Assembly (NCBI GenBank): GCA_025201805.1
Contig: MU619369.1
Location: 7,535 to 71,534 of the forward strand
Length of the DNA: 64,000 nucleotides
DNA from: Parasitella parasitica NRRL 2501
Taxonomy: Eukaryota; Fungi; Mucoromycota
Direction of reading: 5' to 3'
Shown: piece after piece, positions 2,553 through 20,353 of the stretch
Layout: each line of letters starts with the position of its first letter
Numbering within the stretch: position 1 is the stretch's first letter
Translations under genes and position numbers: made by a program
Notes under the pieces: model-generated
What the model was told of the DNA's origin: nothing
What the model saw: the letters and a program-made list of their open reading frames with translations, nothing else
Databases searched by the model: none

Positions 2553-3035
2553 CTAATCTTCACTACCACCCAATGCAGGTAGTGCAGGTAGTGCAGGTAA
2601 AGTTGGAATACCGCCCAAGGTAAATCCTGTAAACGGATCCAAAGCAGGCAATGGAGGAAGCGCTGGTAATTCTGGAAGGCCTGGAGCAGCTGGAGCAGCT
2701 GGAGCAGGAGGGACTGGCAAGGCAATAGGCAAGAATTGTGGAGCAGCTGGGACAGGAAGGCCAGGAAGTCCTGGAGGCGTTGGAAAAGCAATGCAAGAAA
2801 AATCGGGCGTGAGCGATGGAGGAGATGATTTGGCGGCGCAAGCGGGATCCATTGACCCAGGAGCACAATTTACTGGTGATGCTGGTGGTGCTGGTGCTGG
2901 TCCTGAGGCTGGGGCACCTGGGGCAGGTTGTGTTCCTGGAGGACATCTTTTCACCAACACTGGAGCTGCTGATGCTTGATGGAAGGTAGCTAAGATAGCC
3001 AGGCAGTATACAGATAAATAGATAGATACTTGCAT
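2553..3035 (-). CDS. Secreted proline-rich pre-pro-protein 1 (160 aa)
   Basis: ATG at 3035; signal peptide MQVSIYLSVYCLAILATFHQASA; APVLVKR Kex2-type site; 4 Cys in the mature part; LPX repeats; ends LGGSED; TATATAAA at 3093-3100. Confidence 0.85.
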   Translation of the reverse strand: MQVSIYLSVYCLAILATFHQASAAPVLVKRCPPGTQPAPGAPASGPAPAPPASPVNCAPGSMDPACAAKSSPPSLTPDFSCIAFPTPPGLPGLPVPAAPQFLPIALPVPPAPAAPAAPGLPELPALPPLPALDPFTGFTLGGIPTLPALPALPALGGSED

Positions 3036-3847
3036 TTTCTTGATATATTTAGTTGTAAAAAAAACAAAGATATTTGGTAATAAAAAGGTCTTTTTATATA
3101 CAAAACATACAATATGTGTACAGTCTCTTATCGTCAGTGGGTGTAATGGAAATATTATACATTGCATTAACAGAAACAAATACAACTTTCTGACCAAAGA
3201 GCAATATTCAATGTACAATATTCTGTGCAGAACTAACACTTGTATACCAATTGTTGATGGAGAGGCGTTGTGACATAATAACCGCTCAGTTCATCGTAAC
3301 GAAACTGAGGGCGATCATTTTTGTCTTTGACTTTCACATGCTGTTGATCTCTTATTTATTTTTATCATACTCTACAATTACTGGCTCGTGTCACTTTTGC
3401 TGGATTCTCTTGGCAGCAAAATAATACTATAGCACAAATCTGTATATTCGTCTTGCATATTTGAAATGCAAGCTACACTAAAATAAATTGTCGATCCATA
3501 CAAATACTGCAGCAGTAATCATTTAAGTCTCCTCATTTCTGCTCAAGGATGTAGTGATTTCTAAACCTACCAAACGCCGAGAAGTAGCGTATAGATACAT
3601 TATATAGAGGGAAAAAAAGGTAATGGTCCCCTGTGTGATTCTTATCTTTGGAATATTCTTTGTTCATTTAGGCGTACATGATACATAAACTAAAAAAAGG
3701 TTGCTCAAAGGCACTCCCTGAAGGTACGTTTTCACAGCGACAAACTGTTCCACATGGACGATAAATGTTGGTATTCTAAATTTATAGTTTTTATGTGGTT
3801 TTTGCATCATTTTATTAAACTTGTTTGTAAATTAAAAATAATTATGT

Positions 3848-4249
3848 TTAGGCTTCGTCTTCGTCTTCTTCCTCTTCATCTTCTTCGTCCGTCTTTTTGG
3901 GCTTTGGAGCAGGAGCTGGAGCATATTGAGGTGGATAGGGCGAAGGTGGACCAGGAGCAGCGTAAACTGGAGCAGCAGGAGCAGCAGCGGCTCCAGGTAA
4001 TGCTGGAACTGCTGGGACCTTAACAGCTGTTAATGATGCCAATAATGGTGAAAGCACAGTGCTGGGATCAACATTTGGTAAAGTAGGAAGAGTTGCGGCT
4101 TGTCTTTTGTTGAAATCCATTCGACGTTTATTAGAAATCACTGATCTTTTGCCACCGTTGGCTATCACAGTTTTACACAGAGCTTCTTGTACTAATGTGG
4201 TGTAGATGGCTACAACCACTAAGAAAGTAATAGTCTTCAAGCTCAACAT
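3848..4249 (-). CDS. Secreted proline/alanine-rich pre-pro-protein 2 (133 aa)
   Basis: Signal peptide; three KR sites (GGKR, NKRR, FNKR|Q); Pro/Ala-rich body; strongly acidic tail DEEDEEEEDEDEA; TATAAATA at 4345-4352. Confidence 0.85.
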   Translation of the reverse strand: MLSLKTITFLVVVAIYTTLVQEALCKTVIANGGKRSVISNKRRMDFNKRQAATLPTLPNVDPSTVLSPLLASLTAVKVPAVPALPGAAAAPAAPVYAAPGPPSPYPPQYAPAPAPKPKKTDEEDEEEEDEDEA

Positions 4250-4937
4250 TATATATATGTTCTAGTAAATATGTGTATGTAATGTGTTAGTTAAGTATAT
4301 GGAGATGAAAGGTAATGCAATCTTTAAAACGCAATGTGTGCTTATATTTATACTTAGAAATCCGTATTCAGCCAAACAAACGGGGTAGATCTCGAGCTAA
4401 TGCTGCTTTCCTACTCCGTTGTCTGCAGTTTTCTTTATTAAAACACTGCCAAGATTAGAGCAGCATGATGCATGAAGATCGTTTTTTTTTTTTTTTTTTT
4501 TTCATATGCTGATAACCCGTTTTTGAGTACCACATTCTTTTATTTCTCTTAGCATTAATATATGCATATCTGATGTTATCTTCGACACATCTCGTACACT
4601 TTGACGGTGACTACAGACAAAACGCAAGGAGTCCACCATAAGTGCAAGTATTTGGGTGCCAAACCCATATGCGTAAGGAAACTGATTGATACGAAGTGGT
4701 CTAACACGGCAGTATCACCCAGCGTGGATGTTTTAACAGAAATGACCGAGGTAAAGCACTTAACGATATTTCATATTCACATTTACCAAATGACATACAT
4801 TATTGTATTATTTTTAAAATTTTTTATTTATTTATTTTGAGCATCTATATATAATTGGATAGTAATAGTAATAAAAAAATAAACTCTGTATTTTGATGAT
4901 ACAAATGAAATGAAGTTTTTAATATTGGCTAATGATC

Positions 4938-5423
4938 TTAATCTTTTTCACCACCACCACCTAACAGGCCAGCAACAGTGGTTGAAGCATCGGGGATGGT
5001 AGGAAGCACAGGAAGTTCTGGGAGTCCTGGAACACCTGGAAGTGCTGGCAATGTTGCAGGAAGGGCAGTTGAGAGGTCAGGAAGTACTGGTGCTGCTGGA
5101 ACGGGCACACCTGGTAAACCAGGAAGAGGTACAGCAGGAGCGGCAGGTGGAGCTGGGAGAGGTGGAATTACGACTCCGGGAACTGCTGGAGCAGTGTATG
5201 GAGGAGGAGGGGGAGGAGGACATGCTGGATCTTGGGGATTTGCTGGGTTGGGGCAAGTTTTTTGTCCAGGAGGAGGAGGAGGAGGGCCAGCAGCAGCATT
5301 TTGACGGCTTTGAAGCTTTCTTAAGATACGTTTATCTTTGATTTCTCCTTGAGCAGAGACTTGCAGCAAACATGCGAGGGTTGCAACGATGGCAAAAAGA
5401 GTGTATGTGAGAGCAGAGCGCAT
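4938..5423 (-). CDS. Secreted proline-rich pre-pro-protein 3 (161 aa)
   Basis: ATG at 5423; signal peptide; basic propeptide KDKRILRKLQSR|Q; polyPro runs flanking CPNPANPQDPAC; LPX repeats; ends LLGGGGEKD; TATATAAA at 5503-5510. Confidence 0.87.
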   Translation of the reverse strand: MRSALTYTLFAIVATLACLLQVSAQGEIKDKRILRKLQSRQNAAAGPPPPPPGQKTCPNPANPQDPACPPPPPPPYTAPAVPGVVIPPLPAPPAAPAVPLPGLPGVPVPAAPVLPDLSTALPATLPALPGVPGLPELPVLPTIPDASTTVAGLLGGGGEKD

Positions 5424-6236
5424 CTTGTATCTTTGAATTTGAAAGTAAGAAAGATGGAAAGAAAGGAAGAAAAAAAACAATAAACGAAAAGAAGGTTGAG
5501 GGTTTATATAAGATTACCAGGCGTTTTCATATGAGAGGTGCGTACGTCGTCATTTAACGCTAAATGCATGTCAAATTCTTTGTTCCCCCATTTTCAAAAG
5601 CATTGACTTGTTTCTCGGCCTTCTGGCTGTATTTCTCCTTTATATACCATACATATATTTACATCGAATGAAAAAAAAAGGGGTCGTGATGTTATGAGAC
5701 GTAGTTCTGGGTCGTTTTCGTCTTGGAACACAAACGTTAATAGTCTCATTTTTCGAAACCAACATTATATCGATTCGAAAAAAACATTTATTCGCAAGTG
5801 CATATATCGTATGGATTAGCTTCTTGACTGTCAAGTAACTCTGCCTTGCATGTCTATTTGTATGTAGCAAACAAGTAGCAGAAAGTTGTTGCAAGGAGCT
5901 GGATCCACTGCTTTGGTCATGAGCCCTTTTTTCGTCTATATCTATAATATATCCAGGTATTTGTTTGCCACTGCGCATCATATCAACGGAGATCCTTACG
6001 GGATGGCTAGATAGAAATATATTTATATGTAAATCAAAAACACAAGGTAGATCATATTTGATAAGGGGGGTGTTTAGATTTTTATGCATCTCGCCCCTGA
6101 GATTATCGGCTGTGGATCATTTTGATGGTTTTGTATGGTGTCAATTGTATGCAGTAGGCTTAAAAACAAAATTTTCATCTTTATTTCAAAAACAAAAAAA
6201 GAAAATAACAAAAAATTGATGCTGCATAGACATACT

Positions 6237-6617
6237 TTAATCTTCATCTTCCTCATCATCTTCACCGCCGCTTGGTTTACCACCAAGATTCGGAAGAGCA
6301 GGCGCTTTGGGTAGTGTTGGCACAGCTGGGACTGGAGCAGTTGGAATTGCAGGTAACTGAGGAAGTGCCAGGATAGGGAGAGCTGGCAAACCTGGTATAG
6401 CTGGTAAACCTGATGGTGGTGGTGGTGGTGGTGGTGGGCCTCTTGGATCATAGCCACTGGCAAAATATTCCCGGTGATGTCTTCCCCTCTTGATTAGCTT
6501 TGATTTTGAAAGATGCATCTTTGTACGACTTGTGCCAGCTGCTGAAACATAATGCAGCGAGGAGAACAACAGTAGGCTAACAAGGGCCATCGTTGAAAAT
6601 AAAGAAAGGATTTGCAT
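6237..6617 (-). CDS. Secreted proline-rich pre-pro-protein 4 (126 aa)
   Basis: ATG at 6617; signal peptide; propeptide ...SKSKLIKR; P8 run then LPX/IPX repeats; ends LGGKPSGGEDDEEDED; TATATAAA at 6675-6682. Confidence 0.85.
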   Translation of the reverse strand: MQILSLFSTMALVSLLLFSSLHYVSAAGTSRTKMHLSKSKLIKRGRHHREYFASGYDPRGPPPPPPPPSGLPAIPGLPALPILALPQLPAIPTAPVPAVPTLPKAPALPNLGGKPSGGEDDEEDED

Positions 6618-7319
6618 GTTTGTACAAGTATTATTTGTTTGTAGATATCGAAAAAATAAACGAAAAGTTTCATTTTTATATACCTTGACAGAAATTGGTT
6701 TCTGGATTGTGGAATGAATAAATAGACTGTATATATTGATTGAAAAATTACTAATGAAATAATATAATACACCCTGTCCATGTATTTCATCTCCTTGGAT
6801 ACAATGGGTGCTCCTAATTTCTGTATGATCTTCTGTGTTTATCATTTTTTCATTATGACACAATTCTTGCTCAATATTCAGGGGATTGACACTATTGTAT
6901 ACATCATACAGAAATTTTTTATTTGATAAACATTAATTATTATTAAATTCTTCTAGGCTTTTTTTTTTTTAATTTATAGCATAATATACAACTTTTGTTC
7001 CACGTGCTGCTTTTAAATCAAATATGGTCGGTTTTCGCCATACAGTATACCAAGATTAGGTTCTGTTATTTTTAATATGTATCCCTCGTCTGGCATTGTC
7101 TATTTATACACCCACCGACTCGAGATAGCACTTATTTAAACGCATATGTATGCATATTCACGGAAAAAGAGCAGTAATGAAGGGATATATAGAAAAGATC
7201 GACAATCAAGTGTAAGCCCATCATGAGATGGAAAATTAATTTATTGTTGTAATTTGGAAACATCATATACAAAAACTGCTTTTACAATGGATTTGGATTG
7301 CTATATACGCCTAACAGTT

Positions 7320-7538
7320 TTAGTCATCATCAGGAGGTTGCCCACCAAGCAAGTTTGGAGGAATAACACTAGCGAAAGCTGGGAGCTCGGGAAGAACAAA
7401 GCCTCGGGCAGCACCACCAATTTGAGATTCTTGCTGTCTGTCTGCTGAGTCTTCTCTTTTTGCGATAATCGATGCAGTAGGAGCTGCATAAAACAGTGGA
7501 AGAGCGCAAACAAAAAAAACGATTAAAAGCTTGATCAT
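7320..7538 (-). CDS. Small secreted pre-pro-protein 5 (72 aa)
   Basis: Signal peptide MIKLLIVFFVCALPLFYA; SIIAKR|E; LPELPA; ends LLGGQPPDDD like its neighbours; TATAAAAG at 7615-7622. Confidence 0.8.
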   Translation of the reverse strand: MIKLLIVFFVCALPLFYAAPTASIIAKREDSADRQQESQIGGAARGFVLPELPAFASVIPPNLLGGQPPDDD

Positions 7539-8520: not shown

Positions 8521-9966
<1,446 letters not shown>

Positions 9967-10113
9967 GTTGTAATAAAATGAATAGAGGTGTGTTGCCATG
10001 CTGTTACATGGAAATTTCATGCACACGTGATAAAATAAAATGCAGCTTGTAATCAACTTGATCTTTTCCTCTTTTTTTTTTCGTTTTTTCTCCATACAAC
10101 TTCATCAACCAAG

Positions 10114-13100
10114 ATGTCCGAAAAACGTAGCATAAAGACCAACAATGGCGACGAGAAGAGTAGTAGTGTACTTTCAAGACCGCCTCTGAAAAAGAGGTTC
10201 GTGTTAGGATCCGGTACAACATCGACCGTTAGAGATCCGCACCCACCAAAAAGACAGGCGTTTGCTAATGTAGGAAACACCCAGATTAATCCCCTATGAT
10301 TTGATCCGTATTCATCAAACTACCATAGAAATTGCCTGATAATCTGTCAAAGAAAGAGCTGCTGGAACACATGTATTCAGTCAAAGTAAAACCACTGACC
10401 CCAAGTATTGACCGAAACTTAACCACGTATGAAATGTAGAATGCTTACATTCAAGAAAAGCAATACTTGGGCCAATTGAAAGATAATGCCGCTGAAGCAA
10501 ATGCGCTATATGGCGCTATTAGGTTACAATTTACGATGGTAAGGATATTTTATTTTCTGATCTGTTGAACAAATCGCGAGAAAATGCAGGAAACTTACCA
10601 CTACTTTCATTGCCATAATCACTACTATGGCTGTTGAAGCTCCGCGATGAACTTGCTGCATTTCCTGCGATTGGCAACTTACCAGGTATTATATCATCAG
10701 CATGCAGTCTTGACAATGTTGACGTTTTAGTACAATCACATAGGCGAGAGTGAAAATAGCAGCATAGCGAATCAATTGAAGCAGGTGTGCTTAAAAATCA
10801 CTGAGAAAATCCAAAGTTGGAACGCACAAACGAATCAATTGATGTCGGCCGAATTTCAAAGCGCAGGTAGATTGAGCAAAGTGAAGTTTGGCAATATTTT
10901 TCCAGGTTTTTTTTTTTAAAAAAAAAAAAAAAATGCATGTAGATTTGGAGAAGCAAGGCCAGACCTTGTCAAACTATATTCGATTTGATATGGAGCAGCT
11001 TGTAGCTTCGGATCCTGGGACCACCGTCAATTCTCTCAGACAAGCAAACGAAACGAAATTGAGTCTCATAGCAAAGACCACGAGCGACATTAAATCTACT
11101 CTTGGCCACCTTGAGAAATCAAACGATTTACTTGAAAATTGTGTACAGTCTATTGCTTCCATTGAAAAGCGTCAAGATCGACTGCAAAGCGATGTGGTCG
11201 CCTCTGCACTTGGCTCCCTATCGACATCCACACCTGTCGGCGACAAAGAAGTAGACATGACAGAACAACCAGATGAACTACCGCAACGCACTCAAATGGA
11301 CAAGCTAATTGAATGTCAACAGCTATTGGCATCTCGTAACCAAGAACTGGCCCAAAATCAGCAGGACAGAGAAGAGCTACATTCTAGACTTGATGATCTT
11401 CTGGATAGATTAGCAAGACTAAGCAGCGATTACATCAAATATAATTCAATTTATGTCAATCATTTGCAATTTATGGATGAATTAGAGTGCAATCTGGCAG
11501 ATTACTACGAGCAAAGGAGGATCCATTTACTGAAAGAAGAGGACATTTTCTCAAGAGAAAGGGAACAATTGGTTAACCAACAAAAGTCTGAAATGGCGTC
11601 AAGAGAGGCCATGTTCGCAAATGAAACAAAACGCTTACAAGAAACCTTAACCCGGATTCGTCATAATCGTGATGAGCTGCAACACGTTTTCCAAAGACGC
11701 GTGATGGAAGAAAAGGAAGCGAGGGCGTACAATGACCAAATAATAAAGGTCGCCGACGAACAGCAGGTACGTGGAAAATATGCATATTTTGTGTTGCCAT
11801 AGAGATTATATATACAGACGGTGGTTGTGACCAATGTGCTATTTTAGAGCCGCATGGTTGAATTGGAACAAGATGTATTACACAAGCGCCAAGCAATGGA
11901 CACGGAGACATTACTGCCAGACGATTATCTAAACTATCGTAAGTTGAAACTGCAGATAGAGTAAGTTTTAATTTACTGGCGAATGTGTCTTATCAGAGCG
12001 AAGCATATTATTTATTATTACTTGCAGGAAAACACATGGCATCTTGCATGGTTTACGGCAGCACAAACAAGTAAATAATGCCCAGCGTGTTATGGATTCG
12101 CCACTCATGGACATATTAAATTTACTCATCCTACACAGACAGCAGCTAGAATTGCTGATTCTTTTTTACGAAAACGTTGGTGTGCTTGGTTTGGCATACA
12201 AAACAGGAGAAAACTTACACGCGCGGTTTATTTTTAGACTGAATTGGACCTTTATGCCCAAATGGATTACGACGGCAGCGCCATTGAACGCCGAATACCC
12301 CTTATACAACGTCAGATCAATGATAAAAGAGCCCACCAACAAAAGCTGCAGGCAGAGATAAGCAAATTTGTATCCTCAAATGCAAAGCTGGCAGACAAAA
12401 AGCATGAAAATGACATACAGTACGCACAGCACCGACATCAAACCCAATTGCATGAGAAATCCATCTCGCATTTAGATGAGAAAATAGCATCAATCGAAGC
12501 CGAAATCGTGAGTTTATGCTTTCTTTTGTTTCTGAAAACCAAAACAAAAAAAAAAGCTCCAATGATTCATATATCGTGAATATAGATGGAAAAGGAGAAG
12601 GACCTTGGACAATTAGAGACCAATGTGGAACATTACAGATTGACATTTGATGATATTTCTCAGGAGAGCAATGAGCTACAATCGAATTATGAGAAATACG
12701 AATCGCATTTGAGCCAGCTGCTAGATATGGCAAAGGAAAAAAACAAGATTTTAGAGCAGGAAACGCTGCTCGTCCAGCAAGCCAAGAGCGAGCATGAAAA
12801 GTTTCTGAAAAGATGGAATTTGATCCAGCAAGGCGAAAATCCAGCGTCGCAAGAGTTAATTGATGAAGTGGAGGAGCTTCGGGTACGTTTTGATGGTTGC
12901 ACATAGACGACGTCGCATTTACCAAAAGTCAACAGGCACACTTTAAATGCAGTGCTTGCAAGACTCGCACCAGGGAATGTATTTTGACTAGCTGTATGCA
13001 TACATTCTGCAATGAGTGTATAAGAATTCGATTGGAAACCAGACAGCGAAGATGCCCCTCTTGCGCGATTACCTTTGGAGCCTCTGATGTCAAGGGTATT

Positions 13101-13118
13101 TGTTTGTATGGCAAATAA
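10114..13118 (+). CDS. BRE1: BRE1-like E3 ubiquitin ligase (long coiled coil plus C-terminal C3HC4 RING), multi-exon
   Basis: N-terminal PPLKKRF, extensive coiled-coil exons, terminal CSAC...CMHTFCNECIRIRLETRQRRCPSCAITFGASDV typical of Bre1. Confidence 0.82.
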
Positions 13119-13312
13119 AATAATATGACCCCCTCCTTTTTTCATCTTAGACAAAACCAATGATGATGAAAACAAAAATTCCTTCTCGAGTGCCTGAACA
13201 CCTCCTTAATAGTTTGTGTAATTTTATGCACTAAAAACATATATAAATGGCCAAGTTCCTTTCTCGTTTTTTTAACTGCCCTTTTTCTGGATAATCATAT
13301 TAAATTCTAAAA

Positions 13313-13561
13313 ATGAAATTATACGCTCTTATTTTGACCATTCTTTCTATCCAAATTGCTCTTGTTTATGCCGCTGAACGCAAAGCTCAACTTTCTCGCC
13401 GCAATATTAAAAAATATCTCGCAGAAGAAACTACCATCGAGGAACGTTCAATTGATCATGGTTTGTATCTGATAAAAAAGTCAGTGCGTGCATAGAAACT
13501 TACTCGTTGGTCTCTTTTAGACAAGCGTGGTTCCGACAGATGCCCTTGGATACGTTGTTAA
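13313..13561 (+). CDS. Small secreted pre-pro-peptide (62 aa, 2 exons: 13313-13460, 13521-13561) releasing C-terminal GSDRCPWIRC
   Basis: Signal peptide MKLYALILTILSIQIALVYA; RKAQLSRR; 60-nt intron GTTTGT...ACTTAC...TCTCTTTTAG; exon 2 reads in frame (G)AC AAG CGT GGT TCC GAC AGA TGC CCT TGG ATA CGT TGT TAA; TATATAAA at 13240-13247. Confidence 0.8.
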
Positions 13562-13886
13562 ATATTTGCCAGCACTACTATCAATGTCATTGACATATGT
13601 ACTATTAGATCCATGTAAAATTCCTTGAGAAATAAATGTCCCCTGAACGAGGGCTATCATGTAATAATAAAATACTTTGTAACATTAGCCCTATTTTAGA
13701 ATGAGTCACTACGGGAGGATTCAGATCCAGGAGTGAACACATTTATACAGACTAAATATTGGCTTTAAACCAGACAAGTAAAAAGGAGAAACTTGTAATA
13801 TGTGTATATCTAGGCTATAATCCAGCATAATGGGGTTTTGTCTCTCTTTTTTTCCATCTCTTTTTCCATCCTATTTAACACATATT

Positions 13887-14105
13887 ATGAAATCGTCCGC
13901 ATTATCACTTCTTGTGTTACTACTGTCATCGTCTGCCACTACTGTTATTACTGCACTTCCAGCGCCAGAGCCACAGCAACAGCCAGCCATTATAGCCCCA
14001 ATGGACATTGCAACGCCAGTGAAGCAAGATACTGACCAGATAAACAGAATTCTTCATGAAGGCACACTATTCCTGAGTTTCCCTGATAACGGTCCAGAGG
14101 AATAA
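13887..14105 (+). CDS. Small secreted protein (72 aa) with X-Pro dipeptide leader
   Basis: ATG at 13887; signal peptide MKSSALSLLVLLLSSSATTVITA followed by LP-AP-EP-QQQ; acidic end DNGPEE. Confidence 0.75.
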   Translation: MKSSALSLLVLLLSSSATTVITALPAPEPQQQPAIIAPMDIATPVKQDTDQINRILHEGTLFLSFPDNGPEE

Positions 14106-14449
14106 ATTAATAATAAATCTACATTTTTCACATCGTCCATGTACATTGCTATATTTTACCACATTTATTAACGGGGTCAATTTTTTAATTTGTATAAATA
14201 AATGTACCTTGCAAATTGTCTTTGTGTATAAACATTCCTTCAGTATCAAGCATGGTCAGCGCCTTGAAGTTTTTTAGTGGCTAGGGGTTCATATTACTTT
14301 TCATCATACTAGACGTATGAAAAAAGGTTGCTAAATTACTGCCACATACCAACTGATAGTACTATATAAACACTTACATTCATGCCCTTTCTTTTTTTTT
14401 TTGTTTTTCTGTCCAAGTATTCCATACACAAGCTCATTCGTCCTTATCG

Positions 14450-15100
14450 ATGCGCATTTCATCTGTAATTTTGTCAATTAGCATAGCACTTGGTGTAGTT
14501 TACGCTGTTGAAAGTAATCACGAAAAACAAACACTGATTTCTGATTATGGACTAAAGAAAAGATCGACACTGATAAAACGTGATTATGCTACGACGTTAA
14601 AATATCTGCGTGCTGCCATGGCCAGTTATCGAAAAGATGCCGTGACTCCACCTTCTGCTGCATTCGTGCAGTTAGAACAGAGTTTGTCTCCTCAACCAGT
14701 CAAGGCAGCACAACCACCGCCAGAAGTAGTGGACCCTGTTTGGGCGGTAGAAACAGAACCCATGCCATCACCTTCTAAGCAGCAAGTTATATCATCACCA
14801 GCTACGCCTGAACTACAAGGTCCTCAGCATTTGGATGCACCTGAACCGTCTACGCCTGATTGGGAAGCCTCTTCTCCTTCCCCCGACTCGTCCTCTTCTT
14901 CAATCGATTCTGCTACACCCCCTGAACAGCCTGCGAATGAGAAATCTGCCTCTCCAGAATTAGTCAATGAGAGAAAAGAAAAGAGCCTTCCTATCAACGC
15001 AGATATTGAAGAAGATGATACTTTTGATCCAGAAGAAGACCCAGATGATGTTGACGACCCTCCCATTGTGAACGGAGTAGCAGTAGATAGAGAAGAGTAG
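14450..15100 (+). CDS. Secreted Pro/Ser-rich acidic pre-pro-protein (216 aa)
   Basis: Signal peptide; LKKRSTLIKR|D; short amphipathic segment; P/S/E-rich body; very acidic tail; TATATAAA at 14363-14370. Confidence 0.85.
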   Translation: MRISSVILSISIALGVVYAVESNHEKQTLISDYGLKKRSTLIKRDYATTLKYLRAAMASYRKDAVTPPSAAFVQLEQSLSPQPVKAAQPPPEVVDPVWAVETEPMPSPSKQQVISSPATPELQGPQHLDAPEPSTPDWEASSPSPDSSSSSIDSATPPEQPANEKSASPELVNERKEKSLPINADIEEDDTFDPEEDPDDVDDPPIVNGVAVDREE

Positions 15101-15989
15101 TTCGTTAGCCAATAAAATTGCATGCCATCATATCATACTATTCGGCTGTTTGTCCTGCACATAATCAAATGAGTGTAGACACTAATGCTCTGACATACAT
15201 GCTATCACATCATTCTCTCCTATAGTAATGCAGAGAACTGTTGTCTCGTATATTTGGTGAGAAAGATTCACAGGTTACAGAAAAGAAGGGGTTTGTAGAG
15301 TGAGTGTGATGTGGCAAGGTAGCATTATGGTGTCTAAAATGCAAACACTAGCATAAAATGTTATCCTGCACGGTCAATCCAATATTCTTTGTTTGCCTCA
15401 AGTATAAAGAATATATGGCAGATTAGGTGGGTGTGTTTGTTTGTTTACCTCTTGGAACAATAAGACTTGTACATGTACACTATATAACTGCCTTTTGCGC
15501 CTTTTCGTTTTGGAGTATCAAGAGACACGGCAGACGTAGGCTTCGTTGGAAGGGGAAAGAGATGTCTTTGCTCCTATGTTTGATATTTGATAGTATCATG
15601 ATGGTTACGGTGATATTTGCTGATACTTTTGCTGGATGAAATGCGTGACAACCCACGCCTCCCCCCCCCCCCTTGACCCCCTTTCACTTTCATTGATCGA
15701 TGTATGCTTGATGATTGCTTTTCACAGGCTATAAACTTCAAGAGACGTTTGGGTCGATATATATATATGGACAGGAAAAAACTTGTATCAGGAAAATGCT
15801 ACGTAATATTTCTTTACATTGTGCCTTTAGCTTATTTATACCTCCCCCGTATACATGGCGCCAATCCTGGTTAGCGGGAAGGGGGGGGGGCAAATGCAGC
15901 GATATTTTGAGGAGAGAGCCTTCGCCGAAAACATATAAAAAGAGGGACTTTTGAATGAATATTCAATAAACCAACATCTCTACAACAAA

Positions 15990-16427
15990 ATGACAAGAAT
16001 CATCGTCTTATTGTTTGCCATGGCCATTATGGTCTCATCATGTCTTGCTGCTGGCAGTATTCAGAGAAAGGCTCGCCTTTCAAGAAGAGAAGTTCCCGAT
16101 GCAAAGACTGCAGTCAAATTGGCTCAATTTGGCGTGCACAACATGCTGGGTATTGCAACAACGACTACAAATCAAGAGTTACATCTTTTCCAACCAAAGA
16201 CACCACCAGCCACTGCTTCTGGAAATACCGGTGCTCCTGCTCTAGGTAATGCTGCCGCTACTCAAGACAAAACTGCTGCTGAAGGCGATGCTGCTGCTTC
16301 TACTGAAAGCAAAGCTACTACTTCTCCTGCCAAGGACGGCGCTGCTGCTGATGTTGAGGATGGAACTGATGCTACCGCTGAAAGTGGCGATGTTCAAGAC
16401 GAAGCTGGAGAAGACACTAGCTCATAA
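15990..16427 (+). CDS. Secreted Ala/Thr-rich acidic pre-pro-protein (145 aa)
   Basis: ATG at 15990; signal peptide; IQRKARLSRR|E; A/T/D/E-rich tail; strongly biased codons (GCT, ACT); TATAAAAG at 15934-15941. Confidence 0.85.
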   Translation: MTRIIVLLFAMAIMVSSCLAAGSIQRKARLSRREVPDAKTAVKLAQFGVHNMLGIATTTTNQELHLFQPKTPPATASGNTGAPALGNAAATQDKTAAEGDAAASTESKATTSPAKDGAAADVEDGTDATAESGDVQDEAGEDTSS

Positions 16428-16723
16428 GTTTGAAAGACACTCTAAAAGTCTGATTACATTTTGTTACTGAACATACATATACTCGAACAAATTAATTTTA
16501 ATACTATAATAAAAACATTTTCACTTATAAATGTTTGCTGTCACCAGGTGGAATAACTGAGCATGCATGCAAAATTCATGATTGTCCAATTCAGTTCAAC
16601 CACATATGGGCTTGCCTGGAATGACCTGATTTCCGGGTCGGTCCTACACATGTTCATTTTAATGGAAACAAGTGATGGTTCAATTTCCTCTCTTTTTTTC
16701 CTTTAAACCTCATACATAACATA

Positions 16724-17557
16724 ATGGACAAACTTCAAAAATACTTGAAACCGCATCAGATCGTAGCCCTGATACTTTACCCAAGCACGGTGTTTATAGC
16801 ATTTATATATTCCACCATTGGACACCCACCAGATTCCTATTTCAGTAACAAGCGTAATATTTTCAATATGCTCTTTGTCAAAATTGGGTGGTTCTGGGTG
16901 ACGCTGGTGTATTTTGCATATCTGTATCTAGTTGCGTCAAAGCGCTTACAGAATACGCAAGCGTTTGTAGGAGGTGCTTCACGCTATGCACTAGTGACGT
17001 TATACTGGTACATCATGACACAATGGCTGCTGGGGCCAAGCTTCATTGACAGAGTCTACGTATTGACGGGCGGTAAATGCACTTCCTTGCTTCAAGATAC
17101 TAAATTGAATGCAGATTTGGCCATGGTAGTTCAGCAACAAGTGTGTCGTAAGATGGGAGGTCAATGGACTGGCGGACACGATGTTTCTGGACATTGTGTT
17201 TTGCTGATTCACGCAAGTTTGTTTTTATGGGAGGAGTTAAGCTGGATGTTCTACAATGCAAAGCCATTTATTCAGATGAAGACACGCGAACGTGCCCAGT
17301 ACTTTTCTGTGGTCAGCGTCTTGTTGCTTGCGTCATTGTGGTATTTGATGCTTTTCATGACCGGTGTATACTTTCATGGACACTTTGAGATCCTATCTGG
17401 CTCGATTTTTGGGATATTGGGCTGGGCATTATTAGTACGTACAAATTACGCAAAAAATGTAAATTTCATATGTTTATTTTAATCAAATTTATAATAGTAT
17501 CTTGGTGTATTCCCTAGGCTTCCAGAAATTGGTCTTGCGGCAGCAGCAATTCAATAG
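16724..17557 (+). CDS. SCS3: FIT family (Scs3/FITM2) acyl-CoA diphosphatase / fat storage-inducing transmembrane protein
   Basis: YFSNKRNIFNMLFVKIGWFW, GGHDVSGH and MTGVYFH motifs, multiple TM segments; intron 17435-17497, last exon ends AIQ*. Confidence 0.92.
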
Positions 17558-17603
17558 ACATTTGTATAGTATAAATAAAACAAAACCTTTATAGATTTTG
17601 CTA

Positions 17604-20353
17604 CTACGTTTGTCTTTTCAGAAAATAGAGATATGCTTCTCCAATAGGTGGGTTCGGGGCAACGGCGACTTTGTTATCATTGAACAATATCCATTCGCCA
17701 TCCTTGTAGACATGAGCTACGTAGTGACCGCAGTGAACAGAAGTGCCCTTGTGAGATACAAAGGAATCCAGCTTGTAATTGAACGGAGGAGTAGAGTCTG
17801 ACAATCAAAACAAAGCATGATTACAAATTCGCAGAAAAAGCAACAAGGTTCTACTTACCGCCGACAACTTCAGGCGAAGTGGCGTCGCTTGCAGCTTGTT
17901 CGTCCATTTCTCCATTGTCACCAGGATGACTAAACAGCCAATCCAGTGCTCTCTCTGTATCGTTATTCTATCAACCCATCCATATCAATTATCAGTCAAC
18001 CATTTGTGAACCGTTACTCCCAATGCACACAACTTACAGTCTCATGTAACGCCTTCTTTGCTTGCTGTGCTGTGAATCCCATTTCTTGCAATGTCGAAAT
18101 TTGATCTTGAGTTGGCCCAGACGTACCTGTAGCAGCAGTATTATCGGATGAGGTGGGTAGAGGATCATCAATATCAGGATCCTCCATGTGCTCAAACATC
18201 CAGTTCATAGCAATGTCAGCGCCATTGTGACCAGTATTCAACAGAGCTCTCTTGCAGCGGTTCTCAGAGAAGCCCATAGCTTTCAACTGGTCAATGTCAT
18301 TCTGATTAAAAGATGGTCCTGAGCAAGTAGAGGGTTCAGCAATTTCTTCTGGCAATAACTCTTCTCCTGGCTGCTGACCCAGACCAAGGTATTTGTCAAG
18401 TTGTACTGATCCTCGAGGAAAGTTGATGGGAATATCTTTCAAACTGATAAATGTCACAAACCCCGTACGACATGTCAATACTTACTTAGTTTTTGAGGGA
18501 CCCAATTGACGAAAGCAAAACGGCGAGGATTAATCACCAAAATTTCAGGGAATGTACTAAATTTGACAGATCTACGTGTTGTATTATGATGAGACTTGCA
18601 TGCAGCAAAGAATAATTAGTTTTTTTTTTTTACCTCTGAGCAATAGTTTTTTCGTTACAATTGGGACATTGGTATCCATCGACCGTCTCTTCTCTCACAA
18701 ACACATCCAGGCATTCTGTGAAATCGACGGCTTCGTACTCATTTTCAGTATTCTCCTTGAGACGAGCAGGCACTTCTACAGAGATGCAACTTGTCTTGTC
18801 CTTTTGATATCGAACCTTTTTACATTTCCCACATTGAAGGCGCTGTTCGGTGAAAAAATCGAACGCCTTTGTAGGATCGTACTTTGTGGTGTGTTCTCTT
18901 TGTTGAATTGTCTTGCACAAGAATTGGAAAAACTCAAACGCATCTTGCTGGCGCATAGTGGAGAATTCCTGGTGGTTTTTACCGACAAGAGCCTTGAACA
19001 TGCCCGGCGCAATGCCGTCTTGATATTGAACACCGTCATCATTTGTCATGGGCTGAGAGTATCTTCCCGAGACCAGACCATCCGCTAGTTTGTGCAACTG
19101 GCAATGCCAGCAATTGGCAGGATCCGCAGTGCATGTCAGTGCATGATCGGATAGCTGTTGGTTGTATCTTGATTGAAACTGCTCCAGGTTGAACGCTGCC
19201 TGTAAAACGGATGCCATATAGCAACTGTTGCCTAAATTCTTGAGTCCAGTATAACCAGCACCAAACTTGGGCTCCAACTGCTTTCCATCCTCGGTTGTCA
19301 TGCTAAAGTCAAACTTCATGTTTTGCTCCAGTTGTAGTTCAATCATACTCTTCTCGGTCTTTTGCTGCTGAGCCACGTTGATACCCCAATTAGCTAGATG
19401 GGTAGCTAAATTATCGTCGACACGAGCATCATCACAGCTGTAGCAGTAGATATCCGCAGTACCTTCTGCTGTGATTGTTCCCAACTTCACATTGACGCCA
19501 TGGCCTGTCTTTTCAAAATGTTCAATAGCGTGATTGTTGCCTCCAGAACCATCGTACTGTTTGCGACCACATCCCAAATTGCCGCAGACTAAACACAGCC
19601 ATAAATTTTGATTCAGCTCGCAATCAGCGCAATGCGCTAGATCTTGGTTCTGCAATTGTTTGGGCTCTTCTTGGACCAAGCACAATGTATGTTCACAGGG
19701 GGTGATCACCTCTTCCCAAGCCTTTACCTCAGATTGCTTGGCAGATGACAGAGATTTCATCACCGCATCAACCATTGCATTCAACTAGATACAAGCCTCA
19801 AATTTAATTTTCTTGCGTGAGCTACCAACAAAAGACATACCTTGGGCGTAGCCGCTTTGGATTCCTCAGTATTGCAAGCGTAACATCTGACACTAGTGGC
19901 AAACTCGTACGTAGGCTCTTCATTCTCCATTACAATAGCAATTTTGGTGATTTTTTGAGGTGGCGCGTCTTCGTCGCTCTATCAGGCGTTTAGTTTTCAA
20001 GTGGACTTTATGCATAAACATGCAAAACAACTTACTCGTTTGTTGGGATTGGTGACAGTAATGCGACGAATATTAACAGCTAATGGATGGCCTGTGAGCT
20101 GACTATGAGTCAGAGCGTGGTGTCTGTCTTTATCCAAACAACCACCGTTGAAACATGTTAGACAGACATCAATGCCTTCAGGGCCATCCTATGATGTAGT
20201 GTTACGTAGTTTTATCAGAGATGGATGGCACATCAATCCAACGTTCTGTTTTCCTACCTGATTATCAAAGCATTGGGTACATTCTTCTTTGTGTACTTGG
20301 ATGAATTCTGAAGGTGGGTTTAGCGTAGCCTTGTTGATATGAGAGCAAACCAT
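17604..20353 (-). CDS. UBP14: Ubiquitin C-terminal hydrolase 14 (USP5/isopeptidase T orthologue)
   Basis: HKEECTQCFD N-terminus, ZnF-UBP NLWLCLVCGNLGCGR, GLKNLGNSCY Cys box, two UBA domains (MGFSENRCKRAL; MGFTAQQAKKAL), SHKGTSVHCGHYVA His box. Confidence 0.96.

What the first reader, a model, noticed from the sequence alone, without database searches (positions are those of the whole stretch)
13313..13561. Intron-hidden hormone-like precursor releasing a disulfide-looped decapeptide GSDRCPWIRC
Seen: the ORF track ends this gene at ...KSVRA*. A canonical 60-nt intron (13461-13520, GTTTGT...ACTTAC...TTTTAG) instead gives signal peptide | AERKAQLSRR | NIKKYLAEETTIEERSIDHDKR | GSDRCPWIRC-stop. 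The only two Cys in the protein sit in the last six residues as C-x4-C with a Trp. Established: signal + acidic spacer + KR + short cyclic C-terminal peptide is the layout of peptide hormones, toxins and antimicrobial precursors (for example the C-x4-C ring of urotensin II; some ascomycete alpha-pheromones also contain two Cys). Mucorales mating is known to use trisporoids rather than peptide pheromones. Inference: a candidate new signalling or antimicrobial peptide. The similarities are architectural analogies, not claimed homology.
Basis: partly seen in the sequence, partly recalled or inferred. Interest (0 to 1): 0.88.

Follow-up and report, generated by a model that had tools for sequence, protein, structure and literature searches.

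The report
Mucor mould disulfide-ring peptide precursor
A pin-mould genome holds a tiny two-exon gene, spliced as predicted and shared with Mucor species, whose likely secreted product is predicted to release a short two-cysteine ring peptide that may act as a signal in mature mycelium, in a group of fungi for which our searches found no described peptide signal.

Summary
The 60-nt intron 13461-13520 is spliced out in an RNA-like run, giving a 62-aa precursor. A profile lacking exon 2 retrieved Mucor orthologues. All 4 spliced full-length models, from M. lusitanicus, M. bainieri and M. circinelloides, end R-C-P-W-I-x-C-stop. One correction: the KR beside the decapeptide is peculiar to this genome. 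All 14 homologues carry EKR seven residues earlier, where the window has EER. The Mucor product would therefore be a 17-mer; only the ring is shared. The spacer is not acidic in the orthologues. The probable M. lusitanicus orthologue is single-copy and about 570-fold higher in mature, sporangiophore-forming mycelium than in yeast (ID match inferred). No Pfam, PDB or Atlas family, KEP-catalogue entry or paper was found. Best reading: a kexin-released disulfide-ring peptide acting outside the cell during aerial development. A signal is somewhat more likely than a defence or structural role. Processing, disulfide, receptor and activity are all untested. Mucoromycotina reportedly lack Dikarya pheromone receptors, so it is not an alpha-pheromone.

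The parts
13240..13247 (+). TATA-like box (TATATAAA), 73 nt upstream of the ATG, in the 194-nt gap after the upstream RING gene
   Evidence: sequence; promoter function inferred
13313..13460 (+). coding exon 1 (aa 1-49 plus one base)
   Evidence: homologous to 14 proteins
13313..13372 (+). predicted signal peptide, aa 1-20 (basic residue 2, hydrophobic core 4-19 with mean hydropathy 2.09, small residues at -3/-1)
   Evidence: sequence; 13 of 20 identical to each Mucor orthologue; no dedicated predictor was available
13397..13402 (+). first dibasic site RR (aa 29-30) in the LSRR motif
   Evidence: LSRR in 12 of 14 homologues; cleavage inferred
13439..13447 (+). EER (aa 43-45), the position where all 14 homologues have EKR; 17 residues follow it in the window and in all four spliced orthologues
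13461..13520 (+). 60-nt phase-1 intron, GT..AG, branch-like ACTTAC at 13498-13503
   Evidence: spliced out in run X1; the same H|G junction in 8 of 9 unspliced homologue calls and in P0004
13521..13561 (+). coding exon 2 (13 codons including the split codon, plus stop)
13523..13528 (+). KR (aa 51-52), a second dibasic site found only in the window's sequence
   Evidence: absent at this position in the 4 spliced orthologues
13529..13558 (+). predicted decapeptide GSDRCPWIRC; conserved core R-C-P-W-I-x-C at 13538-13558, Cys codons 13541-13543 and 13556-13558
   Evidence: 6 of 7 invariant across window and 4 orthologues; release and disulfide inferred
13631..13636 (+). AATAAA, 70 nt after the stop; the RNA contig ends at 13643 in adapter sequence

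Best explanation
The gene is spliced into a 62-residue precursor that is predicted to be secreted and cut at basic sites by a kexin (Kex2-type) protease, releasing a short peptide whose conserved two-cysteine ring likely acts as an extracellular signal in mature, sporulating mycelium. Shown: the splice; the same ring in three Mucor species; EKR in 14 of 14 and LSRR in 12 of 14 homologues; and strong mature-mycelium bias of the probable M. lusitanicus orthologue in published RNA-seq (ID match inferred). Inferred steps: (1) signal peptide removal after residue 20; (2) cleavage after LSRR and after the last dibasic site, giving a 17-mer in Mucor and a 10-mer (or 17-mer) here; (3) an intramolecular Cys57-Cys62 bond making a six-residue ring; (4) the invariant R, P, W, I face binds a specific partner, most simply a surface receptor, while the N-terminal tail and the residue before the last Cys tolerate change. 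Probability that a ring peptide is released: about 0.8. Probability that its job is signalling: about 0.4 overall.
For: Splice seen. The ring was found in orthologues by a profile with no exon-2 information. 4 of 4 spliced full-length models end RCPWIxC-stop at the same distance, 17 residues, from the exon-1 site. Ring 6/7 versus 5/24 invariant elsewhere, Fisher one-sided P=0.004 for the pre-specified ring. The window lost EKR but has a new KR 7 residues downstream, as expected if cleavage ahead of the ring is maintained (inference). Net charge -1 to +1 and no predicted helix in the tail fit a ligand better than a membrane-lytic peptide. ID 1538080 has log2FC yeast vs mature mycelium -9.15, padj 3e-35, row 200 of a sheet sorted by fold change with over 6,100 rows, and is a singleton cluster (PMC12957363 supplements). 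ID 1538086, lying between it and the GroES-like ADH, goes the other way (+2.6 yeast vs primary mycelium), which fits independent control if it is the upstream RING gene (inferred).
Against: No peptide, disulfide, receptor or phenotype was observed. Mucoromycotina are reported to lack the Dikarya pheromone-recognition genes and class D GPCRs (PMC5705715 passages), so no obvious receptor exists. No receptor family was seen in 62 of 92 long frames scanned. The four Mucor proteins are 82-90% identical to P0006, so this is close to a two-lineage comparison, and a scan-corrected permutation gives only P=0.058. The M. plumbeus gene model P0004 lacks the ring and joins exon 1 to the next ORF. Exon 2 could not be seen for 9 unspliced homologues. 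Neighbouring hypothetical genes 1538073 and 1538075 are also mycelium-biased (-7.4, -4.1), which fits a block of structural secreted proteins equally well. The yeast versus mature-mycelium contrast confounds oxygen, solid versus liquid medium and age. The primary-mycelium difference is borderline (padj 0.042 in one file, 0.053 in another). The other locus-tag number, 1459867, also occurs in those tables as a non-differential gene; if it were the right one the expression argument would fall.
Confidence: 0.4

Rival explanations
1. The released ring peptide is a defence or competition factor that works on a specific target, for example a miniature protease inhibitor or a narrow antimicrobial deployed by aerial mycelium against bacteria, fungi or grazers.
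For: Same precursor layout. A conserved Arg next to a constrained ring suits a protease-binding loop (general knowledge). Expression peaks in the nutrient-depleted, secondary-metabolism stage. An unchecked earlier scan note proposes this for a mushroom two-Cys loop family.
Against: Single copy with a near-invariant core, whereas defence peptides are usually expanded and fast-evolving (general knowledge; singleton). Charge -1 to +1. No match to any PDB sequence or Pfam family above cut-off.
Confidence: 0.25
2. The product is a structural or surface component of sporangiophores, sporangia or spores; its two cysteines cross-link between molecules or bind metal, and the basic sites only remove a pro-region.
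For: It sits among small secreted-looking, low-complexity ORFs without Pfam families (13890-14105, 14450-15100, 15990-16427, and four more at 2.5-7.5 kb). Neighbouring M. lusitanicus IDs are co-induced in mature mycelium. One neighbour shares the RKA-x-LSRR pro-motif.
Against: After predicted processing only 10-17 residues remain, small for a structural protein. The invariant R-P-W-I between the cysteines suggests a binding surface more than a simple cross-linker (inference).
Confidence: 0.22
3. The functional product is the middle segment between the two basic sites or the uncleaved pro-protein; the ring is not released as a free peptide.
For: The KR beside the decapeptide is not conserved. 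The KA-x-LSRR region is 7 of 10 identical to the orthologues.
Against: The middle segment is only 3-4 of 14 identical. EKR is in 14 of 14 homologues, which points to cleavage ahead of the ring.
Confidence: 0.1
4. The spliced segment is an intron in a long 3' untranslated tail of the upstream RING gene, and the small ORF is not translated.
For: The one RNA contig that shows the splice also spans the upstream gene.
Against: Protein-level conservation of signal, basic sites and ring in 14 homologues; its own TATA-like box; a separate annotated gene with separate regulation in M. lusitanicus.
Confidence: 0.03

Closest known systems
Ascomycete alpha-type pheromone precursors with two conserved Cys (Sordariomycetes, Leotiomycetes and others; PMC6339444, passages seen)
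   Same: Signal peptide, Kex2-type basic sites, and a 10-17 residue peptide with two Cys plus Pro and Trp near the C-terminus.
   Different: One copy of the peptide, not repeats. No run of Ste13 dipeptides; only one S-P follows the site, and only in Mucor. The order is C-P-W with a C-x4-C spacing. No MF_alpha Pfam hit. Mucoromycotina are reported to lack the class D receptors (PMC5705715).
Kex2-processed repeat proteins (KEPs; PMC6339444, PMC7329392)
   Same: Secreted fungal precursors cut at dibasic sites into short peptides; KEPs occur in Mucoromycota with unknown roles.
   Different: No repeated unit. The orthologues' accessions and the motif RCPWI are absent from the KEP catalogue's 3 supplementary files although both Mucor assemblies were surveyed.
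Animal prohormones with a C-terminal C-x4-C ring, such as urotensin II (recalled, no call)
   Same: Prepropeptide layout with a variable N-terminal tail and a conserved terminal six-residue disulfide ring that contains Trp.
   Different: No sequence similarity was detected. The resemblance is architectural only.
Fungal RiPPs of the ustiloxin type (dikaritins; PMC7329392 passages)
   Same: A short cyclic peptide from a secreted, Kex2-cut precursor.
   Different: No repeats, no Tyr in the core, and no DUF3328/UstYa-type or other tailoring enzyme among 62 long frames within 1-40 kb. The ring would be a plain disulfide.

Membership tests
Alpha-type peptide pheromones | secreted precursor with Kex2-type dibasic sites | tested here: met
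   hydrophobic N-terminus; LSRR in 12 of 14 and EKR in 14 of 14 homologues; cleavage itself not shown
Alpha-type peptide pheromones | repeated mature units with Ste13 dipeptide spacers | tested here: not met
   one unit in the window and in 4 orthologues
Alpha-type peptide pheromones | sequence similarity to known pheromone precursors (Pfam MF_alpha and the like) | tested here: not met
   no Pfam family above cut-off for 6 proteins at E<=10
Alpha-type peptide pheromones | cognate class D GPCR and mating-type-specific action | not testable with these tools
   no genome held; PMC5705715 reports class D receptors absent from R. microsporus and Dikarya pheromone-recognition genes absent from Mucoromycotina
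Kex2-processed repeat proteins (KEPs) | repeated peptide motifs between Kex2 sites | tested here: not met
   no repeat; accessions not in the catalogue
Dikaritin-type fungal RiPPs | DUF3328/UstYa gene nearby | tested here: not met
   none in 62 of 92 frames of 90 aa or more, those starting below 40 kb; short exons could be missed
Cationic membrane-active antimicrobial peptides | net positive charge with an amphipathic helix or sheet | tested here: not met
   net -1 to +1; tail without secondary structure in a low-confidence model
Fungal defensin-like peptides | six or more Cys in a stabilised alpha-beta fold (recalled) | tested here: not met
   two Cys in the mature part
Prohormone-type precursor of a disulfide-ring peptide (works-like claim) | ring peptide is released and oxidised in vivo | not testable with these tools
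   needs peptidomics
Prohormone-type precursor of a disulfide-ring peptide (works-like claim) | ring conserved while spacer and tail diverge | tested here: met
   6/7 versus 5/24 invariant, P=0.004 pre-specified, P=0.058 scan-corrected

The most novel reading that the evidence does not exclude
This is a peptide hormone of early-diverging fungi: a single-copy, prohormone-like gene whose disulfide-ring product coordinates aerial development or sporulation in Mucorales through a receptor outside the Dikarya pheromone-receptor class. The cleavage site ahead of the ring has moved during evolution while the ring stayed fixed.
Probability: 0.3. Interest if true: 0.85.

Novelty: new variant of a known kind. 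Interest (0 to 1): 0.62.

Why it matters
Mucorales are known to signal with apocarotenoids (trisporoids), and the papers read here describe no peptide ligand for them. This gene gives a short, synthesisable, conserved candidate. Its orthologue lies in the genetically tractable model M. lusitanicus and is among about the 200 most mature-mycelium-biased genes in one dataset, so the question whether these fungi use peptide signals becomes testable with one deletion, one LC-MS run and one synthetic peptide. It also shows a blind spot: repeat-based KEP surveys miss single-copy precursors, and this genome's own spliced protein is absent from the protein collection. If it proves to be a defence or wall peptide, it is still an undescribed family, but of less consequence.

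Tried and rejected
No whole genome is held, so paralogues and receptors in this organism were not searched. No listed run is on record as RNA; X1 is a guess that behaves as RNA. Re-laying X1 on 12700-14500 did not lay the contig that covers the gene; the tool says a hole proves nothing. Two metagenome scans (204 and 369 pattern hits) and one prokaryote-genome scan (72 hits) confirmed no locus, so there is no orthologous DNA, no dN/dS, and no exon 2 for the unspliced homologues. The N-terminus of neighbour P0002 found no shorter relatives. Its likeness to the precursor is 7 of 11 residues around RKA-x-LSRR, too little to call it a paralogue. ESM Atlas gave no usable feature hit for exon 1 or P0006, and its structure hits were generic helices. 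AlphaFold2 on 4 orthologues gave mean pLDDT 61.9 with the tail below 50, so no fold search was run. PDB sequence searches: 0 hits in 3. The orthologue IDs were not found in the supplements of PMC9031258, PMC12818731, PMC11258239 or PMC12596049; these may use other ID schemes, so there are no data on phagocytosis, azoles or mating. Three files of PMC12957363 were not searched. The sigma-70 promoter scan does not apply to a fungus. Alternative donor/acceptor pairs were listed; several keep the ring, but only 13461-13520 is seen in RNA. The HotDog and SNARE-associated genes with nearby M. lusitanicus IDs were not found in the window's long frames, so synteny was confirmed only for the ADH side and the next ORF. 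No complex prediction was run: there is no candidate partner.

Full report
OBSERVATION. The ATG is at 13313, the unspliced frame stops at 13495, and removing 13461-13520 gives a 189-nt CDS of 62 residues with Cys only at 57 and 62. The donor GTTTGT is less typical than most donors of the neighbouring introns, but its length (60 nt) sits within their 53-101 nt range. One public run was listed. Laid on 9000-18000, it shows 15 joints, 12 GT..AG and 3 CT..AC, with no other letters. One of them is 13459->13520, skip 60, GT..AG (cut +1), with 124 letters beyond it ending at 13643 in adapter. This is the predicted intron. The evidence is one contig from one study.

HOMOLOGUES. A search with exon 1 found one relative, P0001. 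A profile of these two, holding no exon-2 residues, was run over 1.84 billion representatives and gave 4 hits at E<=0.001. One, P0006, is an annotated 61-aa hypothetical protein of Mucor lusitanicus ending RCPWINC, so the ring emerged from a search that could not favour it. Cluster look-ups and a last profile search brought the set to 14 homologues. Four are spliced full-length gene models (M. lusitanicus, M. bainieri, two M. circinelloides), and all four end R-C-P-W-I-x-C-stop. Nine are unspliced calls from unnamed assemblies that run into the intron. Eight of these, and P0004, have H then G at the junction as the window does, and four continue G-L-Y exactly like the window, which places the same phase-1 donor there. 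One, the M. plumbeus model P0004, reads past the donor and joins the homologue of the window's next ORF (56% identity over 55 residues). It shows conserved gene order but lacks the ring; I read it as a mis-joined model and could not check. The window's spliced protein was not returned by either search of the collection, although two neighbours are in NCBI nr, so the gene appears unannotated in this genome. No relative was confirmed in metagenome or prokaryote contigs. All named homologues are Mucor; the window's organism is a related Mucorales fungus by inference.

WHAT IS CONSERVED. Against each spliced orthologue the window matches 13/20 in the signal, 7/10 in the KA-x-LSRR piece, 3-4/14 in the middle spacer, 3/10 in the tail and 6/7 in the ring. 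Over the last 31 columns 11 are invariant, 6 of them in the last 7: P=0.004 for the pre-specified ring, but 0.058 if any 7-column window is allowed. The four Mucor proteins are close kin. EKR occurs in 14 of 14 homologues and LSRR in 12 of 14. The window alone has EER there, and alone has KR seven residues later. Exactly 17 residues follow that position in the window and in the four orthologues. The spacer is not acidic outside the window.

EXPRESSION. In the supplements of PMC12957363 (searched for IDs; methods section 18 and passages read), ID 1538080, the number in locus tag V8B55DRAFT_1538080 of P0006, has log2FC -9.15 (padj 3e-35; about 570-fold) for yeast versus mature mycelium. For yeast versus primary mycelium it is -2.84 (padj 0.042 or 0.053 by file). 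Mature mycelium is described as the nutrient-depleted stage that forms sporangiophores. The ID match is inferred. The paper mapped to v3.0. 1538080 is a singleton in cluster 8947, and no cluster 9100 or 9200 exists, which fits a very short protein if clusters are numbered by falling length (recalled). ID 1538091 is labelled GroES-like, as is the ADH upstream in the window. The MU402-tag number 1459867 also appears, as a non-differential member of a 5-protein cluster; I take it to be a different gene. Nearby hypothetical IDs 1538073 and 1538075 are also mycelium-biased, while 1538086 is yeast-biased. Four other papers' supplements held none of the IDs searched in them.

CONTEXT. The gene lies 194 nt after a gene ending in a RING domain ('BRE1-like' is my recalled label) and heads a run of small secreted-looking ORFs before a FIT gene. 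No tailoring enzyme or receptor family was found in 62 of 92 long frames.

MECHANISM. The best-supported anatomy is a prepropeptide: signal, short pro-piece ending LSRR, variable spacer, dibasic site, free tail, terminal six-residue ring. Cleavage by a kexin and formation of the disulfide in the secretory pathway follow from established fungal biology and were not shown here; I put release of a ring peptide at about 0.8. For its job I favour an extracellular signal in aerial development (0.4). The gene is single-copy, the core near-invariant and the tail free, the charge near neutral, and expression sharply stage-specific. A targeted defence role (0.25) and a structural or cross-linking role among co-induced secreted neighbours (0.22) remain open. 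Nothing here separates these three directly. Against signalling stands the reported absence of Dikarya-type pheromone receptors in Mucoromycotina (PMC5705715, passages).

COMPARISON AND NOVELTY. It resembles two-Cys alpha-pheromones and KEPs in layout (PMC6339444, passages and section 18; PMC7329392, passages and supplements) but fails their defining tests: no repeats, no Pfam match, no catalogue entry. It has no PDB or Atlas relative. The likeness to urotensin II is recalled and architectural. Accession, locus-tag and motif searches of the paper library returned 0 papers. Topic searches (listings and abstract starts only, except for the papers named above) showed none describing it. The library lacks most subscription journals, and bioRxiv supplements were closed. 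I rate it a new variant of a known kind: an undescribed, single-copy, prohormone-like fungal precursor family, real and testable, with unproven function. Interest 0.62.

Noticed in passing
window 13785-15155: One RNA contig spans two plus-strand secreted-protein ORFs and has two introns in minus-strand orientation (CT..AC at 14148-14208 and 14308-14378). This points to a spliced antisense transcript; no long ORF was found across the joints.
   Followed up: partly
window 15990-16427: A secreted-looking 145-aa Ala/Thr/Asp-rich ORF (P0002) has RKA-x-LSRR right after its signal, the same pro-motif as the peptide precursor; no shorter relatives were found.
   Followed up: partly
window 2556-7538 (minus strand) and 13890-16427 (plus strand): Two groups of small, secreted-looking, low-complexity ORFs without Pfam families, several with KR sites, flank the ADH and RING genes. 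Nearby M. lusitanicus IDs 1538073 and 1538075 are mature-mycelium-biased.
   Followed up: partly
P0004 (M. plumbeus KAG2210832.1): The public gene model joins exon 1 of this family to the homologue of window ORF 13890-14105, probably a mis-joined prediction.
   Followed up: partly
P0007 (JGI/IMG): A more distant homologue (E 1.8e-5) keeps EKR but not LSRR; its second exon could not be retrieved.
   Followed up: partly
PMC12957363 supplement 5, sheet Figure 4g: ID 1538080 is listed with positive values in the dkl and dfl mutant columns but not in the wild-type column; decimal points are lost in the file, so it was not interpreted.
   Followed up: no
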